35,207 bases of DNA from a virus (IMGVR_UViG_3300009131_000004:1-35207); one strand, 5' to 3'; positions 1,046-16,318 are shown, counted from the first letter of the stretch. The notes: generated by a model from the letters alone, not told the origin. Translations and numbers: made by a program.

Positions 1046-1648
1046 ATGGTCATCATCCCTGACGGCGACCCGATCTCCGAGATCGGGTGGACCGACGCCG
1101 CACGGCAGTCCTCCCTCCGGGCACGGCTGTCGGGGGCCTACGCGCGCTCGGTGCCGGACAGCTACAAGGCCAAGCAGGCGGCGAAGAAGGCGAAGGCCTC
1201 CGGCGGCGGGGGCGGAAGTAGCGGCGGAGGCGGCGGGACGCCGAAGAAGACGGCTACGACGACCAACGCGGCCGGCGAGCAGGTCCACTCGTTCAACGAT
1301 GGTGGCAGCGTCACCGTCCACAAGGACGGCAAGGCCACCTACACGCGCGCCGACGGCACGAAGGTCACCGGCACCTACAAGGAGCCGGTCCCCCGCGAGA
1401 AGCGGCCGGCGGGCTTCACGGGCGACGACGATCCATCCGTGGTCAAGAAGAAGGAGCGCGAGCAGGTGGCCGCCCAGAAGAAGGCCGAGCGCGAGCAGGT
1501 GGCCGCTCAACGAAAGAAGGCGCAGGCCGCGCGGGGCTACTACCCCGGTGCCGCCAAGCTCGACAAGGTTCGGGTCTCGCGGACCCGGAAGGGACCCATC
1601 GCCGGGGCCGCGAAGCAGCCCACCACCGGCTCGGTGTCGTCTCGGTAG
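1046..1648 (+). CDS. Basic low-complexity protein with WTDAAR motif (candidate internal head protein)
   Basis: MVIIPDGDPISEIGWTDAAR N-terminus, Gly linker, Lys/Arg-rich body, EREQVAAQ repeat. Confidence 0.75.
   Translation: MVIIPDGDPISEIGWTDAARQSSLRARLSGAYARSVPDSYKAKQAAKKAKASGGGGGSSGGGGGTPKKTATTTNAAGEQVHSFNDGGSVTVHKDGKATYTRADGTKVTGTYKEPVPREKRPAGFTGDDDPSVVKKKEREQVAAQKKAEREQVAAQRKKAQAARGYYPGAAKLDKVRVSRTRKGPIAGAAKQPTTGSVSSR
1454..1506 (+). repeat. 20-nt direct repeat (period 33) encoding EREQVAA twice
   Basis: gagcgcgagcaggtggccgc at 1454-1473 and 1487-1506. Confidence 0.85.
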
Positions 1649-2409: not shown

Positions 2410-3276
2410 ATGGAGATCCTGCGCTCGACTGACGGCAGCGAGATCGGCATCGTTGCCGCGACGTGGGAACTCAACCCGAAGGTCACCTTCGACAGCCTCG
2501 CCGACGAGTTCAAGCGCAACCCGTCGAAGGCGTGGCGAAACTACGGCTCGGTCATCTCGACCAGCATCGACGCCGCCATCAAGGAGCCAGACGCAGTGCT
2601 CCGGCGCGTCAACCTCGCGCGCCCGAGCCCGTGGGACCTCCGCCTGAACCAGTTCGCCGCGTGGTTCGCGCCGCGCTACGGCACCCGCTACTTCCTCCAC
2701 TTCGACCTCTCGCGCAACCGGGACGCCACCGGGGTGGCCCTCTGCCACCGGGAGAAGAACGGCGTGCTGGTCGTGGACTTCATGCTTCAGCACCGGGCCA
2801 TCGCCGGGAAGAACATCAACTTCGCGGAGCTTCGCGAGCGGTACGTCTACCCGCTCGTGGCCAAGGGCTTCCATCTCCAGTGCGTGAGCTTCGACGGCTT
2901 CCAATCCGATGAGACCCGGCAGGTGCTCGAAGAGCGCGGGCTCCACACCGACCACTGCTCGGCGGACAAGAGCACCGACGCCTACGACACGCTCATCGAG
3001 TACCTCTTCAGCGACAAGCTCGACTTCTACAGCTACCCGGTCTTCACGCAGGAGTTCGAGGAGCTTCGTCTCATCGACGGCAGGAAGTACGACCATCCGA
3101 AGCGGTTCAAGAACGGAGCAATCGGATCGAAGGATGTGGCCGACGCCGTGGCGTGCTCGGGGCTGATGGCCGTCCGCTACGAACTGGAGAACCCGGTGGA
3201 GGCACCGGGCAAGATCAAAGTCTTCCGCTCGAAGGCCATCACCGGCCTCACGTACGGCGAAAGGACGGCATGGTGA
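2410..3276 (+). CDS. terL: Terminase large subunit, C-terminal RNase H-like nuclease domain only
   Basis: TWELNP linker, FLHFDLSRNRDATGVAL, SFDGFQS and DHP..SKDVADAVA acidic motifs; directly upstream of portal; no Walker A/B. ATG 2410 is preferred over 2314, which would read through the terminator. Confidence 0.8.
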   Translation: MEILRSTDGSEIGIVAATWELNPKVTFDSLADEFKRNPSKAWRNYGSVISTSIDAAIKEPDAVLRRVNLARPSPWDLRLNQFAAWFAPRYGTRYFLHFDLSRNRDATGVALCHREKNGVLVVDFMLQHRAIAGKNINFAELRERYVYPLVAKGFHLQCVSFDGFQSDETRQVLEERGLHTDHCSADKSTDAYDTLIEYLFSDKLDFYSYPVFTQEFEELRLIDGRKYDHPKRFKNGAIGSKDVADAVACSGLMAVRYELENPVEAPGKIKVFRSKAITGLTYGERTAW

Positions 3277-3458
3277 GCAACGTCCACCGTCGCGGCTTCG
3301 CCTCGCTGTCCCCTGAACGACGCAAGGAAGTCGCGTCTCGGGGCGGCAAGAAGGCCCACGAGTTACGCAAGGCCCACTGCTGGACATCGGAGTCAGCCTC
3401 GGAGGCAGGCCGCAAGGGTGCGGCGGCGCGGCGGGCTCGCAAGGCGGCTACATCATGA
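3270..3458 (+). CDS. KGG-repeat (stress-induced, GsiB/YciG-like) small protein
   Basis: RRGFASLSPERRKEVASRGGKKAH...WTSESASEAGRKG matches the KGG family signature; AAGGA SD upstream. Confidence 0.8.
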   Translation: MVSNVHRRGFASLSPERRKEVASRGGKKAHELRKAHCWTSESASEAGRKGAAARRARKAATS

Positions 3459-6100
3459 GCATGATCACCGACACGAACGGCGACGCCCACCTGAAGGAGC
3501 TTGCCCGCGTGGCCGAGGCTGCCGCCGCCGAGGACCGGCCGGCAGGCGGGAACCACCTCGCCATCAAGCGGTACAAGTTCGTGGACCCCGACAAGGAGTT
3601 CGACGAGATGGTCCACACCGTCTCGACGAGGTTCGTCGAGGTGGACGCGAAGATGATGGAGCAGCGGGGCCGGGGCTACGAGCAGGTCCACTACCGCAGC
3701 CTCAAGGAGATGATGGCGGCCAAGCCTATCCGCCGTCGCGTGCTCAACGTGCTCTCCGGCTCGCAGCTTCGGGAGATCAACGAGCGGCTCGGTGACTACG
3801 TGTCTGGCCAGAAGGACCTGCGCGAGGCCCGCGCCAAGGGGAAGGCCGAGTTCGAGCGGCTCAAGGAGTCCGGCCGGCTTTCGGAAGCGTCCTCCAGCTT
3901 CTACCTTGGGCTCTACGGGGACGAGGAGCAGTTGTACGGGACGGGGCAGTCGAAGACCGTCTTCAGCTTGCAGGACACCATCCTGCCGGGAACTAGCAGC
4001 CCGCAGAGCAAGCAGCAACTCTTCATCGACTACCTCGACATGCACCGGAAGTCATGGGAGGCCGCGACGCGCAACCCGGTGGGCAAGCGCATCGTGGACA
4101 TCATCCCGCAGTTCGTGCTCGGGCGCGGGGTGATCGGCTCGACCAAGCATCAGGAGGGCCAGAACGCATGGGATGACTTCTGGAAGCGCAACAAGATGCG
4201 CGCGAGGTCCCGCCTGATCCTCAAGGAACTGCTGATCTACGGCGAGGTCTTCCTCCGGTACTTCAAGCAGCGGGACGGGCTCGTGGTCCGCAGCCTCGAC
4301 CCGAGCACGATCTGGGACATCGTGACCAACCCCGACGACATCGAGGACGTGAAGTACTACCATCAGCAGTACAGCATCCTCAACACCTCGCCGGTCCCGT
4401 GGGCCTCGACGACGCTCTTTCCCGGCACGCTCATCATCCGGCAGATCCCGGCCAAGGACATCGACCACTTCAAGATCAACTCGACCTCCTCGGAGAAGCG
4501 GGGCCGGTCGCAGTTGTACGCCATCCTCGGCTGGCTCCTCCGGTTCAAGGAGTTCGCCAACGACCGCGTGCTCCTCAACAAGATGCGCGCGATGTTCGCC
4601 CTCGATGTGGCCGTCAAGGGTGACGCCACCGACGTGGCCACGGCCGAGGCGCAGTTCTCGACGCCGCCCGGACCGGGGGCCGTGATGGTCCACAACGAGG
4701 CCGTCACCGTCGAGTACAAGAACGCGAACAACAACGCCAACGAGGCGAAGACCGACGCGGAGATGATCCTCAAGATCATCGCGGTCGGTGCGGGGGTCAG
4801 CCAGCAGTTCCTTGGGGTCACGGACTCGGCGACGCGGGCCGGCGCGCTCATTCAGACCGAGCCGGACGTGAAGAACTTCGAGATGTATCAGGAAGTCGTC
4901 GAGGACATGCTGATGGACACGTGGGAGCGTGTGAAGGCTTCCAAGGGCGTCCGGCAGTCCACCGTCATGGAGTTCACCTTCCCCGCGCTCGCGCAGGAGG
5001 ACCGCAGCGCGAAGCTCAAGGACATCGCGTTTGCCGAGGCGATGGACTACTTCTCGAAGGAGCGGTCCGGCACGATGGCGGCGCGCGAGTTCAACATCAC
5101 GACCTACAACTTCGAGACCGAGCAGACCAAGATCCGGGCCGAGCGCGGGAAGGATCCGGTCATGGCTCTCGGGATGCAGCAGATGCCGAAGGTCACGGCC
5201 GACCCGGCAGCGATGGGCGAGCAGCCGGGTCTCGGGGGCGACCTCGCGCCGGGCTCCGAGCCCGAGGCCCTCGCCGGCAGCCCGGAGCAGCCGCTCCCCA
5301 AGGGCTTCACGCCCGACAAGGGGCCGGTTACCCAGACGAGCGGGCAGATGGGCTTCTCGGCGAAGCGGCTCTCGGGCCGGGATCTGGCCAACACCAAGGC
5401 CACGCTCAACCGACCCGGCTTCGAGCGCGGGAAGGAGAAGCGGAAGATCAAGACGAACCAGTCGGAGGGCACGCCGTTGCGGGCGACCATGCCGCCCGAG
5501 CCCTACGGGATCCGGCTGCGCGAGACCGGCAACGGTCACGACTACTCGTCCACGCAGATCAACCTGCCGCCCAACGTGGCCACGGAGGTCAAGGCGCTCG
5601 CGGCGGTCATCCCCGACGATGTGCTCGCCGAGGACGGCCGTGAGGACCGGCCGCACGTGACGGTGAAGTACGGCCTGCACGGCAACGACCCGTCAACCAT
5701 CAAGCCGGTACTCGCCAAGCAGCCGCCGGTCGCCTTCGTCCTCGGGAAGACCAAGGTCTTCGAGAAGGACGATTGTGATGTCGTCTACGTCGAGGTCAAG
5801 TCGCCGGGACTCGGCAAGCTGCACAAGGCCGTCTCGGAAGCCCTGCCGAACACCGAGACCTACCCGACCTACGTCCCGCATGTGACGGTCGCCTACGTGA
5901 AGAAGGGGGAGGGGCAGAAGTACGCCGGCAACGCCACGCTCGTGGGCACGAAGGTGGTCGCCAGCGAGGTGCTCTTCTCGCCGAAGGACGGCACGAAGAT
6001 CAACCTCCCGCTCGGCAAGCCGCGCCACGTGTGGACCAAGGAGGCCCGCGCCAAGGCGCTTGAGGTCCGTCGGCAGAACGCGCTCAAGCGGAGGCAGTGA
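3455..6100 (+). CDS. Portal protein with C-terminal 2H phosphoesterase (Acb1-like) fusion
   Basis: Position after TerL; portal core (ELLIYGEVFL, LDPSTIWDIVTNPDD, RGRSQL); Pro/Gly linker; two HxT motifs HVTVKYG (5654) and HVTVAY (5879). Confidence 0.88.
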   Translation: MSMITDTNGDAHLKELARVAEAAAAEDRPAGGNHLAIKRYKFVDPDKEFDEMVHTVSTRFVEVDAKMMEQRGRGYEQVHYRSLKEMMAAKPIRRRVLNVLSGSQLREINERLGDYVSGQKDLREARAKGKAEFERLKESGRLSEASSSFYLGLYGDEEQLYGTGQSKTVFSLQDTILPGTSSPQSKQQLFIDYLDMHRKSWEAATRNPVGKRIVDIIPQFVLGRGVIGSTKHQEGQNAWDDFWKRNKMRARSRLILKELLIYGEVFLRYFKQRDGLVVRSLDPSTIWDIVTNPDDIEDVKYYHQQYSILNTSPVPWASTTLFPGTLIIRQIPAKDIDHFKINSTSSEKRGRSQLYAILGWLLRFKEFANDRVLLNKMRAMFALDVAVKGDATDVATAEAQFSTPPGPGAVMVHNEAVTVEYKNANNNANEAKTDAEMILKIIAVGAGVSQQFLGVTDSATRAGALIQTEPDVKNFEMYQEVVEDMLMDTWERVKASKGVRQSTVMEFTFPALAQEDRSAKLKDIAFAEAMDYFSKERSGTMAAREFNITTYNFETEQTKIRAERGKDPVMALGMQQMPKVTADPAAMGEQPGLGGDLAPGSEPEALAGSPEQPLPKGFTPDKGPVTQTSGQMGFSAKRLSGRDLANTKATLNRPGFERGKEKRKIKTNQSEGTPLRATMPPEPYGIRLRETGNGHDYSSTQINLPPNVATEVKALAAVIPDDVLAEDGREDRPHVTVKYGLHGNDPSTIKPVLAKQPPVAFVLGKTKVFEKDDCDVVYVEVKSPGLGKLHKAVSEALPNTETYPTYVPHVTVAYVKKGEGQKYAGNATLVGTKVVASEVLFSPKDGTKINLPLGKPRHVWTKEARAKALEVRRQNALKRRQ

Positions 6101-6101
6101 G

Positions 6102-6959
6102 ATGGAAGAGCCTCAGCCGCCACCGCTGCTCCAGCAGAGTCTCTACGAGAAGATCGCGGAGCTTCAGCGTCGCGAGTTCGACCTGATGCGACGGATCAAG
6201 GCTCCGTACGAGGCCGTGCTCCGAAGCTGGCGGGATGAACTCGAACGGTCGTTCCTCCGGAACTTCGTCCTGCCGATGGGTCCGGAGGGGCGGCAGCAGG
6301 TGTGGAACCCGGCAGTGGTGGAACCTGTGACCGAGAGCCTCATCGAGCCGCTCGACGAGGCCATCACGGAGGTGGAGGACGACCTGCTCGACGGGCTCGA
6401 AGAGGAGGAAGACGATACGTACGAGTTCGGCCTCCTCTTCGGGCTCTGGGAGTTGTCCCTCGGGGGCGTCGATGTCGAGGACTACGAGATGCCCGAGGAG
6501 GGAAGCTACCGGGACCTCCTGCTCGCCGGGGCGTTCCTCGGCATCCCGCTGGCGGAGCGGCTCCGGGCATGGGGCGACACCTACGTGGACAAGTTCCGCC
6601 GCTCGCTCCGGGGCAGTGTCGTCTCTGGCTCGACCCTACCGTCCACCCTCTCGACCATCGACATCCTCATGAAGGGGCTGCCGGCTCAGGCCGCCTCGCT
6701 CGGGGCCAACGAGATCTTCCGGGCCTTCGTTCAGGGGGAGCGCAGGGTCTTCGAGGACTTCGGTGAGGACTGGCTCTGGGTGACGAGGGCCGACGAGCGG
6801 GTCTGCTCACGGTGCGCGCCGCTGCACATGACCATCACGACGCTCGTCCCGGTGGATGACACGCATCCCGACTGCCGGTGCTCGATTATCCCCGTGCCGG
6901 CGGGCTATACTCCAACGCCATCCTCCTTCGCTGCTTTCGCCCAGAGGTTCACCGCATGA
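6102..6959 (+). CDS. Minor head/head morphogenesis protein (MuF / SPP1 gp7 family)
   Basis: WLWVTRADERVCSRC...HPDCRC signature; follows portal. Confidence 0.85.
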   Translation: MEEPQPPPLLQQSLYEKIAELQRREFDLMRRIKAPYEAVLRSWRDELERSFLRNFVLPMGPEGRQQVWNPAVVEPVTESLIEPLDEAITEVEDDLLDGLEEEEDDTYEFGLLFGLWELSLGGVDVEDYEMPEEGSYRDLLLAGAFLGIPLAERLRAWGDTYVDKFRRSLRGSVVSGSTLPSTLSTIDILMKGLPAQAASLGANEIFRAFVQGERRVFEDFGEDWLWVTRADERVCSRCAPLHMTITTLVPVDDTHPDCRCSIIPVPAGYTPTPSSFAAFAQRFTA

Positions 6960-8059
6960 AGGACCGTCCAGAAGTGCTTTGGCTCCACTCCGACCGGACC
7001 GGGTGTGGAACCTACCGCTGCTACGTGCCGGCACTCACACTTCAGGAGCGCGGTTTCGAGAACAACTTCCTGATGCACGACCAGTGCGTCCCTGCCAACA
7101 GGACCCAGTTGAACGGGATCGACCTCGTGGTCTTTCAGCGGGCGGTCGGGTCGCTCTTCCTCGAATGGGCGAAGGAGTGTCGGGCGAGGGACATCAAGGT
7201 CGTCTTCGAGATGGACGATGACCTCTTCCACATCCCGAAGAACAACCCGGCCTCGTGGTTCTGGCACAAGAAGGCCGTGCAGAAGCTCCTCCGGCAGATG
7301 CTCGATCTCTCAGACTGGATCATCGTCTCGACGCCTCCGTTGCGGGACGCTCTTGCCCACGAGACGGGTCGGAAGGACATCTCAGTCTGCTTCAACCACC
7401 TGCACCCAAGCGTATGGGGACCCGGTGCGGTGGACGATGTGCAGAAGTTCGAGAACTTCGGCAAGACCATCATCGGGTGGCAGGGCAGCAACACGCACGA
7501 CGCCGACTTCAAGGTGGCGCTCCCCGCCCTCGCACGCATCCTCGCTGATTACCCGCACGTGATGATGCGCTTCTTCGGCAACGTGCCTCTGAGCGTGAAG
7601 GGCATCGTCCCTGAGACCCGCTTCCAGTGGGCGCGCGGCGTGCCGTTCGACCGCTACCCGGCGACACTGCGGTTCATGAACTTCGACATCGGCCTCGCGC
7701 CGGTCACGACCGCGAAGTTCAACCAGTCGAAGAGCAACCTGAAGTGGCTGGAGTACTGCTCGCTCGGTGTCCCGTGCGTCGCGGCGAACGTCTTCCCCTA
7801 CGGGAAGACCGGCATCAGGCATGGAGAGACCGGCTTCCTCGCCGAGACGGAGGAGGAGTGGTACACTGCGCTTGCGGCATTGGTCGAGTCGGAGGACCTC
7901 CGCCGGCAGATCGGCGGACGGGCGCGTGACCATGCGTGGGAGAAGTGGGGACCGGATCGGGCGCTCGGGTGGGAGCAGGTCTTCCGCCCGCTGCTTGGTG
8001 TCAAGGTCGAGGAGAGGGTCGATGACCAACCTGCAACCGAACTCACGCAGTCAGCCTGA
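6956..8059 (+). CDS. GT-B (GT4-like) glycosyltransferase
   Basis: GCGTYR..P, VFQR, EMDDDLF, IGWQGS..H..D, DIGLAP..FNQSKSNLKWLEY, HGETGFLA motifs; ATGA overlap. Confidence 0.9.
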   Translation: MKDRPEVLWLHSDRTGCGTYRCYVPALTLQERGFENNFLMHDQCVPANRTQLNGIDLVVFQRAVGSLFLEWAKECRARDIKVVFEMDDDLFHIPKNNPASWFWHKKAVQKLLRQMLDLSDWIIVSTPPLRDALAHETGRKDISVCFNHLHPSVWGPGAVDDVQKFENFGKTIIGWQGSNTHDADFKVALPALARILADYPHVMMRFFGNVPLSVKGIVPETRFQWARGVPFDRYPATLRFMNFDIGLAPVTTAKFNQSKSNLKWLEYCSLGVPCVAANVFPYGKTGIRHGETGFLAETEEEWYTALAALVESEDLRRQIGGRARDHAWEKWGPDRALGWEQVFRPLLGVKVEERVDDQPATELTQSA

Positions 8060-8896: not shown

Positions 8897-10426
8897 ATGG
8901 CACGGGTAGAGAAGCGGAAGTTCACCGCCTACACACCTCTCTCAGAGTCAGGTGCCCGGCCGTCCGAGAGGACGGACCGAGGGCGCGTCTACAACGGCGT
9001 CGCTCTCATCAAAGCAGGCCTCGGCAACCGTCGGGATCGCAACTTCTATCCGCCCGAGGTGCTCAAGGAGGCCGTGGACCGAGGTCTCTTCGACGGTCTG
9101 CGCGCGTTTGCGGACCACCCCGACTCGGTGTCCGAGGAGATCCAGCCCGAACGCACCATCCGCGACATGGTGGGCGTGTACGAGAACGCCCGCTTCAACG
9201 AGTCGGACAAGACGGTGCGCGCCGACCTGCGGATCCTCAAGTCTCAGAGTTGGCTCTCCGACACCATCGACGAACTGCTGGAGATCGGTCACGGGGACAA
9301 GATCGGGCTCTCAATCAACGGGCGCGGACAGACAACTCCCGAGCGCATGAGGCTCGCGGAGGCAGGCGACGAGGAAGTGGAAGTGAACCGCCTCCAGAAG
9401 TTCCTCGAACTGCGCTCAACAGACGTAGTAACCGAGGCGGGGGCGGGCGGCGGCTTCTCAGCACTGCTGGAGTCCGCACGGCGCGCAAAGGAGACCACGA
9501 ACATGGGACGCGATCAGATGCTCGCGGCCTTGCGTGAGGCCGTCCGCAAGGGCGATCTCGACGAGGCCAAGGAACTCGAAGCCAAGCTGGCCGAAGAGGA
9601 CGAGACCGACGAGACCGACACCGAAGAGGCCTGCGGCGGCAAGAAGAGGATGGCCGAGGCCGAGGAAGTCGATCACGACGAGGAACTCGAAGAGGCCACC
9701 GAGGAGGCCAAGTCCCGCGCCGACGACGACTCCGACGAGGAGGACGAGGACGCCGAGGATCTCGACGAGGCGGAGTCGGATGACGACGATCTCGAAGAGG
9801 CCGGGATGTTCGGCGGCAAGAAGGCCGCGCCCTTCACCTCCGCCGTCAAGAAGCAGAAGGCCTTCGCCAAGGAAGCCGCCATCAAGGCGGCCACGGGCAA
9901 GCCCACGGGCACCGTCCAGTCCGGGTCGGGCAGCTACGTCAAGCCGGCCAAGCGTGTCGGGAAGTCCTCGATGGTGGCCAAGCCGAAGAAGCTGTCCATG
10001 CGCGAGGCGAACTACGACAGCGGCGAGACCGGGCTCGCCGAACTCCGCGCGGAGAACGCCGTCCTGCGTGAACGTCTCGCCTCCTGCAAGGCCAAGGGCG
10101 AGCGGCTCAGCGAGGCCCTCCGCATCCGCTCATCTGCGGATCGGGCGAAGAAGCTCCTTCGCGAGAGCAATCTCCCGAAGAGCGTTCGCCCGCACCTCAT
10201 CGACTCGTTGCTCGGGCAGTCCGATGAGGAGATGCGGCGTGAGATCCAGCGTCAGGAGCGGATCATCGAGGCGGCGGCGCAGCGGGTCAAGGAGGACCTG
10301 CTCGGCGACGACTTCGAGTCCGTCGAAGGCGCGGGTTCGACCATCCGTGAGTCCTTCACCGGCTCGCGCGACGGGAACGATCTGGGCGACATCCTCGCCG
10401 AGGTCGGCCTCCCGATGAAGCGGTAA
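8897..10426 (+). CDS. Prohead maturation protease fused to scaffolding protein
   Basis: N-terminal protease motifs (N...YP..VL, FADHP, IGLSING, DVVTEAGAGG), then acidic and coiled-coil scaffold region with many LxE-A/S sites; upstream of the capsid genes. Confidence 0.85.
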   Translation: MARVEKRKFTAYTPLSESGARPSERTDRGRVYNGVALIKAGLGNRRDRNFYPPEVLKEAVDRGLFDGLRAFADHPDSVSEEIQPERTIRDMVGVYENARFNESDKTVRADLRILKSQSWLSDTIDELLEIGHGDKIGLSINGRGQTTPERMRLAEAGDEEVEVNRLQKFLELRSTDVVTEAGAGGGFSALLESARRAKETTNMGRDQMLAALREAVRKGDLDEAKELEAKLAEEDETDETDTEEACGGKKRMAEAEEVDHDEELEEATEEAKSRADDDSDEEDEDAEDLDEAESDDDDLEEAGMFGGKKAAPFTSAVKKQKAFAKEAAIKAATGKPTGTVQSGSGSYVKPAKRVGKSSMVAKPKKLSMREANYDSGETGLAELRAENAVLRERLASCKAKGERLSEALRIRSSADRAKKLLRESNLPKSVRPHLIDSLLGQSDEEMRREIQRQERIIEAAAQRVKEDLLGDDFESVEGAGSTIRESFTGSRDGNDLGDILAEVGLPMKR

Positions 10427-10503: not shown

Positions 10504-10980
10504 ATGGCAACTCGTGAATCCATCAACCGCGTGAAGATCGAAGGCTGGCGCGTCAGCAGGGTGCCGGTCAACGCTTCCGAGGACATCTATCAGGGCGACC
10601 TGCTCTGTTGGGACTCGGCGAACAAGCGTGCGACTCGTCTCACGACGGCGGCATCGGGAGCGAACTTCGTGGGCATGAGCGACACGAAGAACTCCATCGA
10701 GACGGCGGGCTCCTCGACGTTCCTCTCGGCCTCCACGACCAACAAGGTCAACGTGATCCAGCAGGGTCTCGTCGAGGTCATCTGGGGGGCGAACGAGACG
10801 ATCTACCCGTTCGACACGGTGGCGATCTCGGGCACCGACGCGCAGACCTGCCAGAAGAGCGCGAGCAACGTCATCGGCTTCGTCGATCCGGCCTACGGGT
10901 CGGCCGGCAAGGCGGCGGTGACGGGTGAACTCATCCGCATCTGGCTGAAGGTCGCCGACAGCTACCGCGCGATGTACTGA
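10504..10980 (+). CDS. Head decoration/cement protein
   Basis: 158 aa between scaffold and MCP; IYQGDLL, FVG and IGFV beta-rich motifs typical of capsid cement proteins. Confidence 0.7.
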   Translation: MATRESINRVKIEGWRVSRVPVNASEDIYQGDLLCWDSANKRATRLTTAASGANFVGMSDTKNSIETAGSSTFLSASTTNKVNVIQQGLVEVIWGANETIYPFDTVAISGTDAQTCQKSASNVIGFVDPAYGSAGKAAVTGELIRIWLKVADSYRAMY

Positions 10981-10995
10981 CGCGCGGCACACGAT

Positions 10996-11021
10996 GAGGG
11001 GGGACGGAAACGTCCCCCCTC
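10996..11021 (+). other. Perfect 11-bp GC hairpin with GAAA tetraloop in the MCP 5' leader
   Basis: GAGGGGGGACG-GAAA-CGTCCCCCCTC; no adjacent U-tract. Confidence 0.75.
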
Positions 11022-11059
11022 CGGCACGCGGTTCTTTCCCGGTAGGAGTGAAAACAACC

Positions 11060-12091
11060 ATGCGCCCCACTGTGGTTCGCAAGTTGAACGAGGTCGCCAG
11101 CAATCTGGACTTCAACGATGCTGGCTTCTCGTTCCGGAGGCTGCGCGAAGCGGCCTACCGTATCGCGGACCTGTACGAGGCCAACAGCGAGAGCACCTTC
11201 GGGTACTTGCTGCGGTCGGCCGTGCAGGAGTTCGCGAACGACGTGTACAACGACCTGCCCATCATCTACCCGAACTTCGTCACCGAGGTCTCCTCGAAGC
11301 GACGGAGCGAGGTGTACGGTGGGCTCTACCGTCCGGCGCTCCCGAAGCAGTTGGACGCGGGTGAGAAGTTTCAGGACACCGCGTTCAAGGGCTTCGAGCG
11401 CGAGATCGTCAACCACAAGTACGGCCACATCGAGACGTTCGAGCGCGAACTCTTCGATGACGACCAGACCGGGCAGATCCGCAGCCGTGCGGCGAACCTC
11501 GGCGAGGGCTTCCGGATCTTCGAGGAGATCTACGTCCTCACCCGGCTGTTCGGCTCGACGACCACGCAGGAGGGCGTCGAGGTGCCGGCCAGCACCTACA
11601 ACTCTGGCTCCCCGTTCACCGTGGCCATCGGCAACAAGCCGGCCACCTACGCGCGCCTGAGTTCGACCACGCTCGAAGCGGCGCACGTGGCACTCCGGTC
11701 GATCACCGACCCGCTCGGGAGGAAGTTCCTCGTCATCCCGACGGTGCTCATCGTGTCGCCCATCGACGAGTTCCTCGCGTGGACGCTGGTCAACAGCCCC
11801 ACGCAGGCGTGGAACACGACGAACGCACTCTCCCACATGGTCAACCCGTTGCAGGGCCGCTACACGGTCTACGCCTCGCCGTTCGTGACGAGCAAGGCGT
11901 GGATGGTCGGCGACCCGAAGCGCGGGTTCGTCTTCCAGCGGCGCGATCCGCTGGAGATCGTGCAGGAGAACGTCCAGAGCGGGAACAGCTTCATTCAGGA
12001 GGTCTACGCCTTCCGCGCTCGTGAGCGGTTCGAGGCCGACTGGATCGAGAGCCGGTTCTGCTACCTCGGCGACGACGGCACCGAGTCGTAA
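11060..12091 (+). CDS. Major capsid protein (HK97 fold, Mu gpT-like)
   Basis: TAGGAG SD; KYG...F.RELFDDDQ.GQI, DPLGRKF.VIP..LIV.P and NPLQG..V..SPF motifs; followed by a terminator. Confidence 0.9.
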   Translation: MRPTVVRKLNEVASNLDFNDAGFSFRRLREAAYRIADLYEANSESTFGYLLRSAVQEFANDVYNDLPIIYPNFVTEVSSKRRSEVYGGLYRPALPKQLDAGEKFQDTAFKGFEREIVNHKYGHIETFERELFDDDQTGQIRSRAANLGEGFRIFEEIYVLTRLFGSTTTQEGVEVPASTYNSGSPFTVAIGNKPATYARLSSTTLEAAHVALRSITDPLGRKFLVIPTVLIVSPIDEFLAWTLVNSPTQAWNTTNALSHMVNPLQGRYTVYASPFVTSKAWMVGDPKRGFVFQRRDPLEIVQENVQSGNSFIQEVYAFRARERFEADWIESRFCYLGDDGTES

Positions 12092-12766: not shown

Positions 12767-13349
12767 TGGTTCCACCGACAAGTTCGAGTTCAAGGCGAAC
12801 GTCTACCCGACGCCGGACACGGTGACGACCCGGTTCTTCGTCGGGCAGACTCGCCTCGTCCCCAACTCGCTGGAGGTCTTCCACAACGGCGCGGCCGTGT
12901 CCCCGAGCGGCATCACCGACATCGACACGGCCAAGGGCAGCTTCACCTACGTGCCGGCCCCGAGCGGAGAGGTCCTTGCCTCCTTCTACTACCAGTGGTT
13001 CACCGATGCCGAGATGCTGGAGTTCCTGAACGAGGGCGTGAACATGCTCCTCGGGCTGGAGAGCGTTAGCGGCGACTTCGCCATCGGCCTGCGGCCCACG
13101 CTCATGCAGTTCGCCTGCTACAACGCCTACATGCGGAAGGCCGCCGAGTTCGCCGAGGCAGTGGAGGCCTCGGCTGCCGGCTACACCTTCAAGCGGGATC
13201 AGGCCTCGCCGAACTGGAAGGAATTGGCCAAGGCCGCGATGGAGAACGCGCAGGCCAAGCTCAAGCTCTACCTCGACAACCCCGTGGGCTCAGCAGCGGT
13301 GCAACTCAGGTTCATCAGCTACGCACTCAACAGGTACGTGGGGCAGTGA
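12711..13349 (+). CDS. Head-tail adaptor (connector) protein
   Basis: Synteny; FTDAEMLEFL helix and helical C-terminal domain; N-terminal beta insertion. Confidence 0.65.
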   Translation: MANWDVTSAIGSLRSLLGDGSTDKFEFKANVYPTPDTVTTRFFVGQTRLVPNSLEVFHNGAAVSPSGITDIDTAKGSFTYVPAPSGEVLASFYYQWFTDAEMLEFLNEGVNMLLGLESVSGDFAIGLRPTLMQFACYNAYMRKAAEFAEAVEASAAGYTFKRDQASPNWKELAKAAMENAQAKLKLYLDNPVGSAAVQLRFISYALNRYVGQ

Positions 13350-13351
13350 CC

Positions 13352-13888
13352 ATGAACATCGATCAGGCAGTGGACCGCATTCTCCGGGAGTCGAACGTCC
13401 GGCTCTTCGGCACCAACGACTACGACGACCTCATGGAGGTGTGGAGCGACGCCGCTCGTGCCGCCGCAATCGCGGCACGGAAGGCGCGGGCTGGCGGGAA
13501 GGACTGGAGGCAGGCCGCCCGTAAGGAGTACGGGAGCTACAAGTCGGGGATGGATCTAGGCTTCCCCGGTGCCGGCGACACCAAAGGAGTCAAGCGTCAG
13601 GAGCGGGATGCTCAGAAGTTCGCGAACCAGCGGAACAGGCGGGCGGTGGGTCGCATGGTGGACAAGGCGGCCCGGAAAGCCGCAGCCAAGACCGGCGATC
13701 CGGCAGGGGCTCTGGCCGCTTTCAACAAGCGCACCCCGCAGGGCCGCATGTCGCGGATGAAGCGAGCGATGGCGGCGGGGGTCAAGGACACCCCCTCCAA
13801 GATCAGCGGAGGCGGCAGCCCGGATCAGCGCACGCCGCAGGGCAAGATGGCCCGGATGCGCCGCATGATGCAGATGGGGATCTCCTGA
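13352..13888 (+). CDS. Basic WSDAAR-motif protein
   Basis: ILRES..LMEVWSDAARAAAIAARKARAGGKDWRQAAR; RTPQG(R/K)M.RM.R repeated twice; alternative GTG start at 13346. Confidence 0.75.
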   Translation: MNIDQAVDRILRESNVRLFGTNDYDDLMEVWSDAARAAAIAARKARAGGKDWRQAARKEYGSYKSGMDLGFPGAGDTKGVKRQERDAQKFANQRNRRAVGRMVDKAARKAAAKTGDPAGALAAFNKRTPQGRMSRMKRAMAAGVKDTPSKISGGGSPDQRTPQGKMARMRRMMQMGIS

Positions 13889-13889
13889 G

Positions 13890-14297
13890 ATGTTCCGAGG
13901 CCTGCGGGCTCCCCGGTGGTTCGTGCAGCGCGACATCCACGCGCTCGTGCGGAGCTTCCCCTCCGAGCGCCTGACCATCGTGCGCCCGACCACCGTGGTG
14001 AGCGGCATGGAGACCACGACGACGGACACCGTGGTCTTCGTCGGCGAGGCGCTCTTCATCCCGCAGGGTGGCGAGGTCAAGCGGTTCGGCCTCGGGCAGG
14101 TCGAGGAAGACCGCCCGTACATCCTTGTCCCCGGCAACCACGACATCCGGCAGGGTGACATGGTGACGCGCTCGCAGATGCTCCCCGGTGGCGTCGGATG
14201 GGAGCCGCCGAGGCGGTACCAGATCCTCTACCCACCGAACCATTGGCAGGCGTTCACGGTCTGTACGCTGAACAACTTCGAGCAGGGGCAACTGTGA
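13890..14297 (+). CDS. Head closure/stopper protein (SPP1 gp16-like)
   Basis: 135 aa, beta-rich, DIRQGDMV...RYQI motif; synteny. Confidence 0.7.
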   Translation: MFRGLRAPRWFVQRDIHALVRSFPSERLTIVRPTTVVSGMETTTTDTVVFVGEALFIPQGGEVKRFGLGQVEEDRPYILVPGNHDIRQGDMVTRSQMLPGGVGWEPPRRYQILYPPNHWQAFTVCTLNNFEQGQL

Positions 14298-15082
14298 TCA
14301 CACCTGACTCAAACGGCGAATCGGAGATCGGGGAGAAGGGCTGGACCGACGAGGCCCGCGCGGCGGCCCTCGCTGCCCGGCGTGCGCTCTCCGGCAAGGC
14401 GGCGCGGGCTGACGCGCAGAACTCGGCCAAGCGGCTCATGGACGAACGGCGGCGGGTGATGGCGGCCCACAAGGCGGCCTCTGCCTCCTCGCACCCGCTC
14501 GACCAACGGCTCGCGAAGATGCACGCCGACAAGCTGGCGGCCATCGACCGGGTAGGCGCGAAGCTCGCGCCGAAGGTGAGGAGCCCCCGCAAGGAAGCCA
14601 TCAAGTCGGCAGGCCGGGCAGCCGGGCGCTTCCTGAAGCGGCTCTTCGTCAGGGAGGCCGAGGGCGACACCAAGGTCCTGCGTTTCGTCGAGGCGCTCGT
14701 GGTCCTCGTCGAGGGCACCGACCTGCACGAGGCCAACTACGCCACGCTCATGGAGCGGTGGAGCGACGCGGCGCGGGCCGCCGCGCTGGCGGCTCGGCGG
14801 GCGAAGAAGCGCGGGCAGAACTGGAAGGCCGCCGGCCGTAGGGCGTTCCTCGATGCGCTCCCTGCCTCGGAGCAGGCCCGTCTCCGGCGCGGGGAGGCCA
14901 GCCCCGGTGACAAGAAGCTCGCCGCCAAGTGGGCCGGCCGGTACGCCAGCAAGCCGGGCTCACGAGTCGCGCGAGGGATGCAACAGGAGTTCGAGCGGGA
15001 ACGGGGGGAGCGGAAGGCGGCACGGTTCGCGCCGAGGCCGAAGCAGCCGCAGGCGCTCCGGGATCTCTGGGCAAGCCAGTGA
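14294..15082 (+). CDS. Basic protein with two W[ST]D[AE]AR motifs
   Basis: GTGA-coupled start; EKGWTDEARAAALAARR (14342) and LMERWSDAARAAALAARR (14759). Confidence 0.75.
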   Translation: MITPDSNGESEIGEKGWTDEARAAALAARRALSGKAARADAQNSAKRLMDERRRVMAAHKAASASSHPLDQRLAKMHADKLAAIDRVGAKLAPKVRSPRKEAIKSAGRAAGRFLKRLFVREAEGDTKVLRFVEALVVLVEGTDLHEANYATLMERWSDAARAAALAARRAKKRGQNWKAAGRRAFLDALPASEQARLRRGEASPGDKKLAAKWAGRYASKPGSRVARGMQQEFERERGERKAARFAPRPKQPQALRDLWASQ

Positions 15083-15605: not shown

Positions 15606-16016
15606 ATGGATGACATCAAGCTGAAGCTGCTCGACCTGATGCGGACCGACCCGACGCTGCAAGCGTACCTCGGTGGGTCCGTTACCGATCCGCGCGTCTA
15701 CATGTACTACCAAGGCGACGCGCTCATCGACTCGCAGCATCCGGCCTACATCACCTTCAGCAACATCTCGACTGGGGAGGCCGCATCTGCCGTCGAGGAG
15801 CCCGTGTTCTCCGTCGTCGTGTGGTCGCGTACGTGGTCACGCTGCGAGGAGATCCGGGACCGGCTGCGCGCACTCTTCCATAAGAAGATCTTTGTCACGA
15901 CGCCGGACTCGCGCAGAATCTACACCAAGTTCGTGGGCGAGCAGGACAGCTATCAGGATCAACCGAAGTACGCCGGCAAGACCATCAGGCTGCGAGCCGG
16001 TTGGAGCACCGTGTGA
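15606..16016 (+). CDS. Tail terminator protein (DUF3168/gp17-like)
   Basis: DPTLQAYLG...RVY...PAYITF...VVVWS...EEIRDRLRALFH pattern. Confidence 0.75.
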   Translation: MDDIKLKLLDLMRTDPTLQAYLGGSVTDPRVYMYYQGDALIDSQHPAYITFSNISTGEAASAVEEPVFSVVVWSRTWSRCEEIRDRLRALFHKKIFVTTPDSRRIYTKFVGEQDSYQDQPKYAGKTIRLRAGWSTV

Positions 16017-16318
16017 TCATCACCCCGAACTCGTGGGGCACTGACTTCACCGAGGCGTGGAGCGACGCCGCGAGGGCTGCGGCGGTTGCCGCACGGCGGG
16101 CAAGGAAGCAGGGGGAGGACTGGAAGAGGGCCGCACGCGCGGCGTACTTGCAGTTCTCAAGACCTTCGGAACGGCGGCAGGTTGTGCGTGGCCGTAGGGA
16201 CAGGATGAGGCCGGGGGAGGGCACGGCAGACCTGAGGCGTCGAGCCCGACGCTTCGCCCCTGAGCCGACGGGTGACCGGATGAAGGCGTGGGCGGGGGGT
16301 ACTTACCTCCCCTTCTGA
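16013..16318 (+). CDS. Small basic WSDAAR-motif protein
   Basis: GTGA-coupled start; FTEAWSDAARAAAVAARRARKQGEDWKRAAR. Confidence 0.75.
   Translation: MIITPNSWGTDFTEAWSDAARAAAVAARRARKQGEDWKRAARAAYLQFSRPSERRQVVRGRRDRMRPGEGTADLRRRARRFAPEPTGDRMKAWAGGTYLPF

What the first reader, a model, noticed from the sequence alone, without database searches (positions are those of the whole stretch)
5150..6100. Portal carries an Acb1-like 2H phosphoesterase behind an LRE site: possible virion-delivered anti-CBASS enzyme
Seen: after the portal core come a Pro/Gly-rich linker, then IRLRE|TG (Glu690, 5522), a ~165-aa domain with two HxT motifs (PHVTVKYG His734; PHVTVAY His809), and finally the WTKEAR motif. 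Known: paired Hx[TS] motifs define 2H phosphoesterases, including T4 Acb1, which degrades CBASS cyclic nucleotides; portals are dodecamers. Inference: up to 12 enzyme copies per head could be cut free by the prohead protease and ejected, destroying cyclic-oligonucleotide signals before phage gene expression. RNA-end processing (LigT-like) is an alternative.
Basis: partly seen in the sequence, partly recalled or inferred. Interest (0 to 1): 0.88.

Follow-up and report, generated by a model that had tools for sequence, protein, structure and literature searches.

The report
Phosphoesterase inserted in phage portal tail
This uncultured phage has an intact nucleotide-cutting (2H) enzyme domain inserted into the tail of its head-portal protein; the domain is likely cut free inside the head and would be carried into the host as a counter-defence enzyme, but it falls outside the Acb1 family and such fusions were already described in 2017.

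Summary
Observation confirmed. The 881-aa portal carries an intact 2H phosphoesterase (H734, H809) behind IRLRE690, and five other contigs encode the same protein. New here: the enzyme and its IRLRE site are a ~170-aa insertion into a conserved portal tail. Only 2 of 112 portal relatives have it. WTKEAR belongs to the ancestral tail. Cutting after Glu is well supported by context: conserved LxE sites in protease, capsid and decoration proteins, and an upstream run of cargo genes with a shared Glu-ending leader. The Acb1 label is weak: 28 bits against 148-203 for true members, Tyr12 and the Trp147 lid absent, fold closer to CPDase/LigT/YjcG, separate branch in a quick tree. The domain belongs to a large viral clade riding on four portal types, MuF, proteases, capsid and polyvalent proteins. 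Iyer et al. (2017, 2022) already reported 2H-portal fusions and proposed injection against nucleotide signalling. This scan found the theme five times on other DNA. CBASS is triggered late, which weakens the 'before gene expression' anti-CBASS story. Cleavage, ejection and substrate are untested. New member of a known kind; interest 0.4.

The parts
3455..6100 (+). Portal gene with inserted 2H domain, 881 aa
   Evidence: identical protein in 5 other contigs
4004..5164 (+). Portal core, about residues 184-570
   Evidence: PF05136, phrog_10963; confident part of the model
3818..3826 (+). LRE 122-124 in the portal's N-terminal extension, candidate propeptide cut site
   Evidence: L in 47 and E in 52 of 68 aligned portals
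5213..5482 (+). Portal tail: Pro/Gly linker, then conserved basic segment ending GTPLR (residues 587-676)
   Evidence: pLDDT under 50 for 587-649; conserved in relatives without the enzyme
5504..6019 (+). Inserted module, about residues 684-855 (IRLRE plus 2H domain)
   Evidence: gap in 66 of 68 aligned portals; spacer 198-199 aa against 18-46 aa
5510..5524 (+). IRLRE 686-690, predicted prohead-protease cut after Glu690
   Evidence: kept in P0002; in a disordered stretch 674-700; motif enriched in head proteins
5537..6013 (+). 2H phosphoesterase domain, about residues 695-853
5654..5662 (+). First HxT motif (His734, Thr736)
   Evidence: invariant in 26 of 26 and 31 of 31
5879..5887 (+). Second HxT motif (His809, Thr811)
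   Evidence: invariant in 26 of 26 and 31 of 31
6032..6097 (+). Basic WTKEAR helix (860-881), ancestral end of the portal tail
   Evidence: A864, R865, R872 in 68 of 68; helix in model; pI 11.8
8897..10426 (+). Prohead protease-scaffold with conserved LxE sites
   Evidence: phrog_15531 E 1e-12; sites kept in relatives
10504..10980 (+). Decoration (cement) protein starting xRE[SA]
   Evidence: PF09956 E 1e-4; motif kept in 3 of 3 phages
10994..12091 (+). Major capsid protein with RRLREAA and L[YH]E[AT]NS near the N-terminus
   Evidence: PF10124, PF25209; both motifs in 3 of 3 phages
1046..1648 (+). Small ORF with the shared leader, a Glu and the W[ST]xxAR helix
13346..13888 (+). Small basic ORF with Glu then WSDAAR helix
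14294..15082 (+). Basic ORF with two Glu plus W[ST]xxAR helices
16013..16318 (+). Small ORF with the shared leader, a Glu and the WSDAAR helix

Best explanation
A catalytically intact 2H phosphoesterase sits as an insertion in this phage's portal tail; it is likely built into the head with the portal ring, likely cut free after Glu690 by the phage's own prohead protease, and would then be ejected into the next host to break down nucleotide immune messengers. The predicted product is residues 691-881 (191 aa, 20.8 kDa), enzyme plus the basic WTKEAR helix, up to 12 per head. Shown: fusion, fold, intact HxT pair, insertion boundaries, motif context. Inferred: head location (about 0.9), cleavage at Glu690 (about 0.7), ejection (about 0.6), messenger hydrolysis (about 0.5). 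It is not an Acb1 family member. Messengers made early in infection (such as type III CRISPR oligoadenylates) fit the timing better than CBASS cGAMP; cGAMP as the true target gets about 0.25.
For: Fold and tetrad. Insertion with its own IRLRE: 2 of 112 portal relatives have the domain; residues 686-700 are a gap in 66 of 68 aligned portals. Site accessible: 674-700 has pLDDT under 50. Glu-specific processing: LxE sites conserved in protease, capsid and decoration proteins of three phages; [LIVMF]RE[AST] occurs 7 times in 1,913 aa of portal, protease, decoration and capsid against 0.7 in shuffles (0 of 300 reach it), but 3 in 6,253 aa of other late proteins and 2 in 3,412 aa of early proteins; 13 of 13 copies of a cargo motif upstream have Glu at the same place. 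The clade is head cargo elsewhere: 22 of 47 large homologs carry a portal or MuF domain; of 39 homolog ORFs scanned, 15 portal, 1 MuF only, 1 capsid, 2 protease, 5 polyvalent-protein markers; a stand-alone homolog (P0054) has this phage group's leader ending LLE. Precedent: T4 gp21 cuts I/LxE (PMC12991175); the SPN3US portal is cut after Glu (PMC10052503); T4 packs and delivers foreign enzymes (PMC9026906).
Against: No activity, cleavage or ejection data exist. The motif pattern was chosen after seeing the head proteins and the count includes the site itself. IRLRE is seen in only two sequences, and the residue after Glu differs (T, R). In SPN3US about 80% of head proteins are not cut and 13 of 14 mapped cuts remove N-terminal propeptides. 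Twelve copies is far below T4's roughly 360 per internal protein. Two structural groups of viral 2H enzymes cut none of 18 messengers (Doherty preprint). The model is closer to RNA-end enzymes than to Acb1. A complete relative (G004) lacks the clade altogether, so it is dispensable.
Confidence: 0.4

Rival explanations
1. The enzyme acts late in the producer cell. Fusion to the portal times it with head assembly, when the prohead protease itself triggers CBASS; unassembled or released copies degrade the signal there, and ejection does not matter.
For: Prohead proteases switch on CBASS from about 14 min in T4 (PMC12991175). Acb1 activity appears late (PMC9117128). A cultured phage, psageK9, has a true Acb1 on its portal (148 bits).
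Against: A free late gene would give far more enzyme. The clade is nearly always on head proteins, polyvalent proteins or leader-bearing proteins, which points to packaging. Acb1's cGAMP-stacking Tyr12 and lid Trp147 are missing.
Confidence: 0.2
2. The domain is an RNA-end enzyme or RNase (LigT/CPDase/Usb1-like) delivered from the head, opening 2',3'-cyclic phosphates left by host RNases or trimming RNA.
For: Best structural matches are drCPDase (Z 16.0, rmsd 2.9, 157 aligned), 4qak phosphoesterase (14.9), Pyrococcus 2'-5' ligase (14.9), YjcG (14.8), Usb1 (13.9), above Acb1 (12.2). PF13563 scores 54 bits against 28 for Acb1. One of 39 homolog ORFs also holds a KptA domain. Iyer 2017 names RNase activity as one option.
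Against: None of 39 homolog ORFs is fused to an RNA ligase, and Iyer 2017 saw no ligase link for these 2H versions. The ThpR equivalog scores 26 against a cut-off of 66. The top Z values may only reflect the full-length ancestral fold.
Confidence: 0.2
3. The domain stays on the portal or is degraded during maturation; it is a tolerated passenger in a permissive loop and never reaches the host.
For: 110 of 112 portal relatives lack it. T4 portals were engineered with C-terminal fusions. The loop varies from 18 to 46 aa.
Against: The tetrad and fold are intact in both carriers at 64-65% identity while the portal cores are 91% identical. IRLRE is kept in both. The same clade was gained by four portal families.
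Confidence: 0.15

Closest known systems
2H domains fused to portal or MuF in phage polyvalent proteins (Iyer et al. 2017, PMC5512222; Iyer et al. 2022, PMC9503650)
   Same: Same architecture and same proposal: packaged in the head, injected, acting as RNase or against nucleotide signals. Homologs here sit in proteins with ART-PolyVal, LPD and InPase domains.
   Different: Here the domain is mapped as an insertion inside a conserved portal tail with its own candidate cut site; the passages read do not discuss protease release. Whether their alignment holds this exact clade was not checked.
Acb1 of phages T4 and FBB1 (PF23474; PDB 7T26/7T27; Hobbs et al. 2022, PMC9117128) and PDE-9 of BCSR5 (9Q2G/9Q2Y; Doherty et al. 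preprint)
   Same: 2H fold, HxT/HxT tetrad, aromatic residues at the Trp74 and Phe107 positions (F769, Y803). PDE-9 is the best profile hit among solved structures (E 3.6e-6).
   Different: 28 bits against 148-203; Tyr12 is Ser699; no Trp147 lid, the C-terminus forms strands instead; separate branch; T4 Acb1 is a free protein.
Portal-Acb1 fusion of Pseudomonas phage psageK9 gp70 (NC_074661)
   Same: Portal gene after terminase ending in a 2H enzyme.
   Different: PF06381 portal and a true Acb1 domain; an independent fusion.
LigT/ThpR, YjcG, CPDase and Usb1 2H enzymes
   Same: Closest in overall fold (Z 14-16).
   Different: 12-15% identity; below the NCBIfam cut-offs for ThpR and PRK13679; cellular, not head-linked.
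T4 internal proteins and Alt with capsid-targeting sequence, cut by gp21 (PMC9026906)
   Same: Cargo loaded in the prohead, cut after Glu, ejected with DNA; this phage has a leader-bearing cargo run upstream.
   Different: The 2H enzyme uses the portal as carrier, capping it at 12 copies; the protease here matches phrog_15531, and its specificity is inferred.

Membership tests
2H phosphoesterase superfamily | Two Hx[TS] motifs | tested here: met
   H734/T736 and H809/T811, invariant in homologs
2H phosphoesterase superfamily | 2H fold | tested here: met
   model pLDDT 94; Z 16.0, rmsd 2.9, 157 aligned to drCPDase
Acb1 (PF23474) | Profile score typical of members over the whole model | tested here: inconclusive
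   28.2 bits, just over the cut-off of 27, covering model positions 36-113 of 144; T4 Acb1 203 and psageK9 148 bits
Acb1 (PF23474) | Base-stacking Tyr12 | tested here: not met
   Ser699; no aromatic in 31 of 31 clade rows, Tyr in 9 of 9 Acb1 rows; a conserved Tyr/Phe two residues earlier might stand in
Acb1 (PF23474) | Base-stacking Trp74 and Phe107 | tested here: met
   Phe769 (F in 30 of 31) and Tyr803 (Y, F or W in 14, H in 12 of 31)
Acb1 (PF23474) | Glu141 adenine contact | tested here: inconclusive
   aligned column is Thr847 here and mixed in the clade (E in 9 of 31); the C-terminal alignment is unreliable
Acb1 (PF23474) | C-terminal lid with Trp147 | tested here: not met
   Leu in 26 of 31, Trp in none; the model ends in strands. 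PDE-9 works with an N-terminal lid, so this does not exclude activity
Acb1 (PF23474) | Nests among Acb1 sequences | tested here: not met
   9 Acb1 rows form one side of a branch (SH-aLRT 90); the clade lies in a separate 34-row group (96). Quick tree only, long-branch warnings
Acb1 (PF23474) | Cleaves 3'3'-cGAMP and cyclic trinucleotides | not testable with these tools
   needs purified protein
LigT/ThpR | TIGR02258 score above cut-off | tested here: not met
   26.4 against 65.7 bits
Head-linked 2H of polyvalent proteins (Iyer 2017) | Fusion to portal, MuF or polyvalent domains, without RNA ligase | tested here: met
   0 of 39 scanned ORFs with a ligase domain
Prohead-protease substrate (gp21-like) | I/LxE motif in an unstructured stretch | tested here: met
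   LRE 688-690 within 674-700, pLDDT under 50
Prohead-protease substrate (gp21-like) | Cut observed in virions | not testable with these tools
   phage is uncultured; no proteomics

The most novel reading that the evidence does not exclude
A large viral 2H clade, separate from Acb1 and with no activity report found, is a dedicated virion-delivered phosphodiesterase. Phages plug it into portals, proteases, capsids or ejection proteins behind whatever cut site their own head protease reads, and it destroys an early immune messenger that Acb1 cannot (cA4/cA6, or an unknown one). In this lineage the portal tail is a cargo bay whose basic helix tethers the freed enzyme to the DNA for ejection.
Probability: 0.25. 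Interest if true: 0.72.

Novelty: new member of a known kind. Interest (0 to 1): 0.4.

Why it matters
If true it would be a clear case of a signal-degrading enzyme arriving with the phage DNA, acting before any phage gene is expressed, and it would assign a substrate to a widespread head-linked enzyme clade (543 confirmed stretches in 35 of 64 parts of IMG/VR) now mislabelled '2'-5' RNA ligase' or loosely 'Acb1'. The precise insertion gives a clean construct (691-881) and a clean control (E690Q). The general idea is in print since 2017, so the gain is a test case, not a new principle.

Tried and rejected
Assembly chimera or frameshift: rejected. WTKEAR as part of the enzyme module or as an Acb1-type lid: rejected, it is ancestral to the tail and absent from other clade members. 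Insertion by a mobile element with target repeats: no flanking repeat pair found; GC3 of the insert equals the core (0.94). A variant without the insert in reads: no joint in 4 runs laid, which are contigs and cannot show absence. Expression: no RNA holder listed. RNA ligases near by: PF09414 and PF01139 gave 0 of 4 records, PF09511 rang nowhere, and three of the four records are fragments, so this is weak; no tRNA genes in the window or in four loci. Host: portal matches in 5 MAG contigs are only 32-36% identical and from unrelated phyla, so no host call. Single-sequence search of solved structures gave only E 0.5-0.6; profile against T4 Acb1 gave probability 38% over 51 columns. The careful tree did not finish, and one LigT row cannot say which family is sister to this clade. 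The W[ST]xxAR ORF had no Pfam hit and no Atlas hit above 0.81. PMC12014285 held none of the terms. No 2H of this clade in 80 portal-relative loci within about 10 kb.

Full report
Setting. The window is a 35-kb fragment (29% complete) of an uncultured tailed phage; the longest contig with this protein is 117,566 bases. Gene order is terminase piece, portal (3455-6100), MuF-like, glycosyltransferase, protease-scaffold, decoration, capsid, neck and tail. The host is unknown.

Observation. The portal part matches PF05136 and phrog_10963. The C-terminal domain matches PF13563 (E 2e-14) and, barely, PF23474 Acb1 (28.2 bits, cut-off 27). Both HxT motifs are invariant in 26 of 26 aligned homologs. The model has pLDDT 94 and the top 21 VIA rows are 2H proteins. 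Five other contigs encode the identical 881-aa protein and another run holds the stretch in one contig. These may be one population, so they rule out an assembly error but are not independent evolutionary cases.

Anatomy. Of 112 proteins found with the portal core, 2 carry the 2H domain: this one and P0002. I aligned these two with 66 of the 74 closest relatives; 8 were dropped (6 intein-bearing, 1 aberrant tail, 1 partial). The relatives share a tail that runs from a basic segment ending GTPLR to a W[ST]xxAR helix. The spacer is 18-46 aa in the 58 relatives where both anchors were found, and 198-199 aa in the two carriers; residues 686-700 are a gap in 66 of 68 rows. So IRLRE and the enzyme came in together as a ~170-aa insertion, and WTKEAR is the old end of the portal. 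A complete relative, G004, has no member of the clade. In the full-length model the core (about 184-570) is confident, 587-649 and 674-700 are disordered, and 862-880 is a helix. That portal C-termini face the capsid interior is recalled general knowledge, not tested here.

Is LRE a cut site? T4 gp21 cuts after Glu in I/LxE (PMC12991175, Results read) and the SPN3US protease cuts its portal after Glu (PMC10052503, passages). Here LxE-type sites are conserved across this phage and two relatives at the end of the protease domain (LLESA), in the scaffold (LLRES, [IF]RES), at the capsid N-terminus (RRLREAA, L[YH]E[AT]NS) and at the start of the decoration protein. [LIVMF]RE[AST] occurs 7 times in 1,913 aa of the four head proteins against 0.7 in shuffles, 3 times in 6,253 aa of other late proteins (1.2 expected) and twice in 3,412 aa of early proteins (1.2). 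The pattern was chosen after seeing these proteins and the count includes the site itself. More independent: upstream of the window, on the overlapping contig G001, nine genes begin with one leader, and all 13 copies of a following motif have Glu at the same place, including two internal RVRE sites that separate domains of a GNAT plus ADP-ribosyltransferase polyprotein. A stand-alone homolog of our domain, P0054, carries that same leader ending LLE. Among portal fusions, the junction differs by portal type: [LIV][RK]E in 3 of 3 lambda-type, 0 of 11 HK97-type, 0 of 8 Mu-type, 0 of 12 PF06381-type; a Lys motif in 9 of 11 HK97-type; [FL]S or FA in 5 of 8 Mu-type; [RKV]AA-like in 7 of 12 PF06381-type (patterns post hoc, two rows had no anchor, two near-duplicate rows left out; that HK97 protease cuts after Lys is recalled). 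Against: IRLRE is seen in two sequences only, and most SPN3US head proteins are not cut. I put cleavage at 0.7. No Glu lies between the domain and the helix, so the product would be 691-881 (20.8 kDa).

Is it Acb1? Not by the tests made. True members score 203 (T4) and 148 (psageK9) bits on PF23474. Of the residues named by Hobbs 2022 (passages), the tetrad, Trp74 and Phe107 positions are kept; Tyr12 is Ser699 and non-aromatic in 31 of 31 clade rows; Trp147 of the lid is absent; Glu141 cannot be placed reliably. By structure the model is nearer drCPDase (Z 16.0), 4qak and the Pyrococcus enzyme (14.9) and YjcG (14.8) than Acb1 (12.2, rmsd 3.6, 135 aligned) or PDE-9 (11.8). In a quick tree of 44 rows the nine Acb1 sequences fall apart from the clade (careful search unfinished, long-branch warnings). 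For the Acb1 link: by profile the best solved hit is PDE-9 (E 3.6e-6), ahead of YjcG (5.6e-5) and Acb1 (1.4e-3); 24 of 26 homologs hit PF23474 weakly; Foldseek ranks Acb1 sixth; PDE-9 cuts cGAMP without the C-terminal lid. So it may work like Acb1 without being one.

The clade. It is large (543 confirmed of 600 stretches in 35 of 64 parts of IMG/VR) and almost wholly viral. Of 47 large homologs, 20 carry a portal domain of four families and 2 MuF alone. Of 73 distinct ORFs from loci, 24 are 1,800 aa or longer and 14 under 300 aa; several small ones start with a leader like that of T4 IPI. I scanned 39 of the 73: 15 portal, 1 MuF only, 1 capsid, 2 protease, 5 with polyvalent-protein domains, 1 of those with KptA, none with an RNA ligase. 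This recurring tie to head proteins is the best argument for packaging.

Mechanism. Shown: fusion, fold, tetrad, insertion, motif context. Inferred: built into the prohead, cut at Glu690, ejected, hydrolysing a nucleotide messenger. T4 delivers foreign enzymes through this route (PMC9026906, passages and section 2.2). Timing argues against CBASS as the target of an injected dose, since CBASS is triggered late by the protease. An early messenger fits better, and Acb1 itself cannot cut cA4. Viral 2H enzymes differ widely in substrate and some cut none of 18 messengers (Doherty preprint, parts 1-3 of 5 read; its supplements were closed and may hold a tested member of this clade). Odds: delivered messenger nuclease 0.4, late action in the producer cell 0.2, RNA-end enzyme 0.2, passenger 0.15.

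What is known. Iyer 2017 (passages) reports 2H domains fused to MuF or portal and proposes RNase or nucleotide-degrading roles. Iyer 2022 (passages) says they are packaged and injected to counter SMODS (CBASS), cyclic mononucleotide and CRISPR signalling. The cultured phage psageK9 has a portal-Acb1 fusion. Eight literature searches turned up no experimental test of a portal-2H fusion or of its release; most subscription papers are outside the library. PMC13728456 was read in passages. This scan noted the same theme five times on other DNA and shared cargo leaders many times; these are unchecked notes, not support.

Verdict. A real, tidy new member of a predicted kind. The insertion mapping and the separation from Acb1 are the additions. 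Interest 0.4.

Noticed in passing
L108 6024-18692 (G001, directly upstream of the window): Nine genes in a row start with one leader (IxP[NDS]S[WY]G, then a Glu, then NDCHxPAG...GGQF-like motif). Cargoes include a GNAT plus ART-PolyVal polyprotein with internal RVRE repeats, a PI3/4-kinase-like protein (TIGR03843 E 4e-13), a weak SAM-lyase hit (E 1e-3) and an HExxH protein. Looks like a capsid-targeting cargo cassette; the leader recurs in relatives L161, L162, L165.
   Followed up: partly
window 1046-1648, 13346-13888, 14294-15082, 16013-16318: Small basic ORFs carry the same W[ST]xxAR helix as the portal end, in 5 of 5 copies 1-3 residues after a Glu; no family match. Possible DNA-binding internal head peptides.
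   Followed up: partly
window 3455-3890: The portal has a ~140-aa N-terminal extension with several LxE sites (LRE122-124 conserved in most relatives), a candidate propeptide.
   Followed up: partly
P0088, P0092, P0115, P0125, P0126, P0135, P0162: Seven portal relatives carry an intein-type domain (PF14890), four with an HNH endonuclease.
   Followed up: no
window 6953-8059: A glycosyltransferase (family 1 type) lies between MuF and the protease, inside the head module.
   Followed up: no
window 3276-3458: A 60-aa ORF just before the portal looks like a KGG-repeat stress protein (recalled resemblance; no PHROG hit).
   Followed up: no
L053, L079, L087, L094, L102: Stand-alone members of this 2H clade begin with a short leader resembling the T4 IPI start.
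   Followed up: partly
L150 1052-2854 (Pseudomonas phage psageK9 gp70): Annotated hypothetical, but a PF06381 portal fused to a true Acb1 domain in a cultured phage; a ready test case.
   Followed up: partly
L059 1258-5439 and L047 3-4145: This 2H clade at the N-terminus of a capsid polyprotein (L059), and in a portal plus 2H plus topoisomerase IB polyprotein (L047).
   Followed up: no
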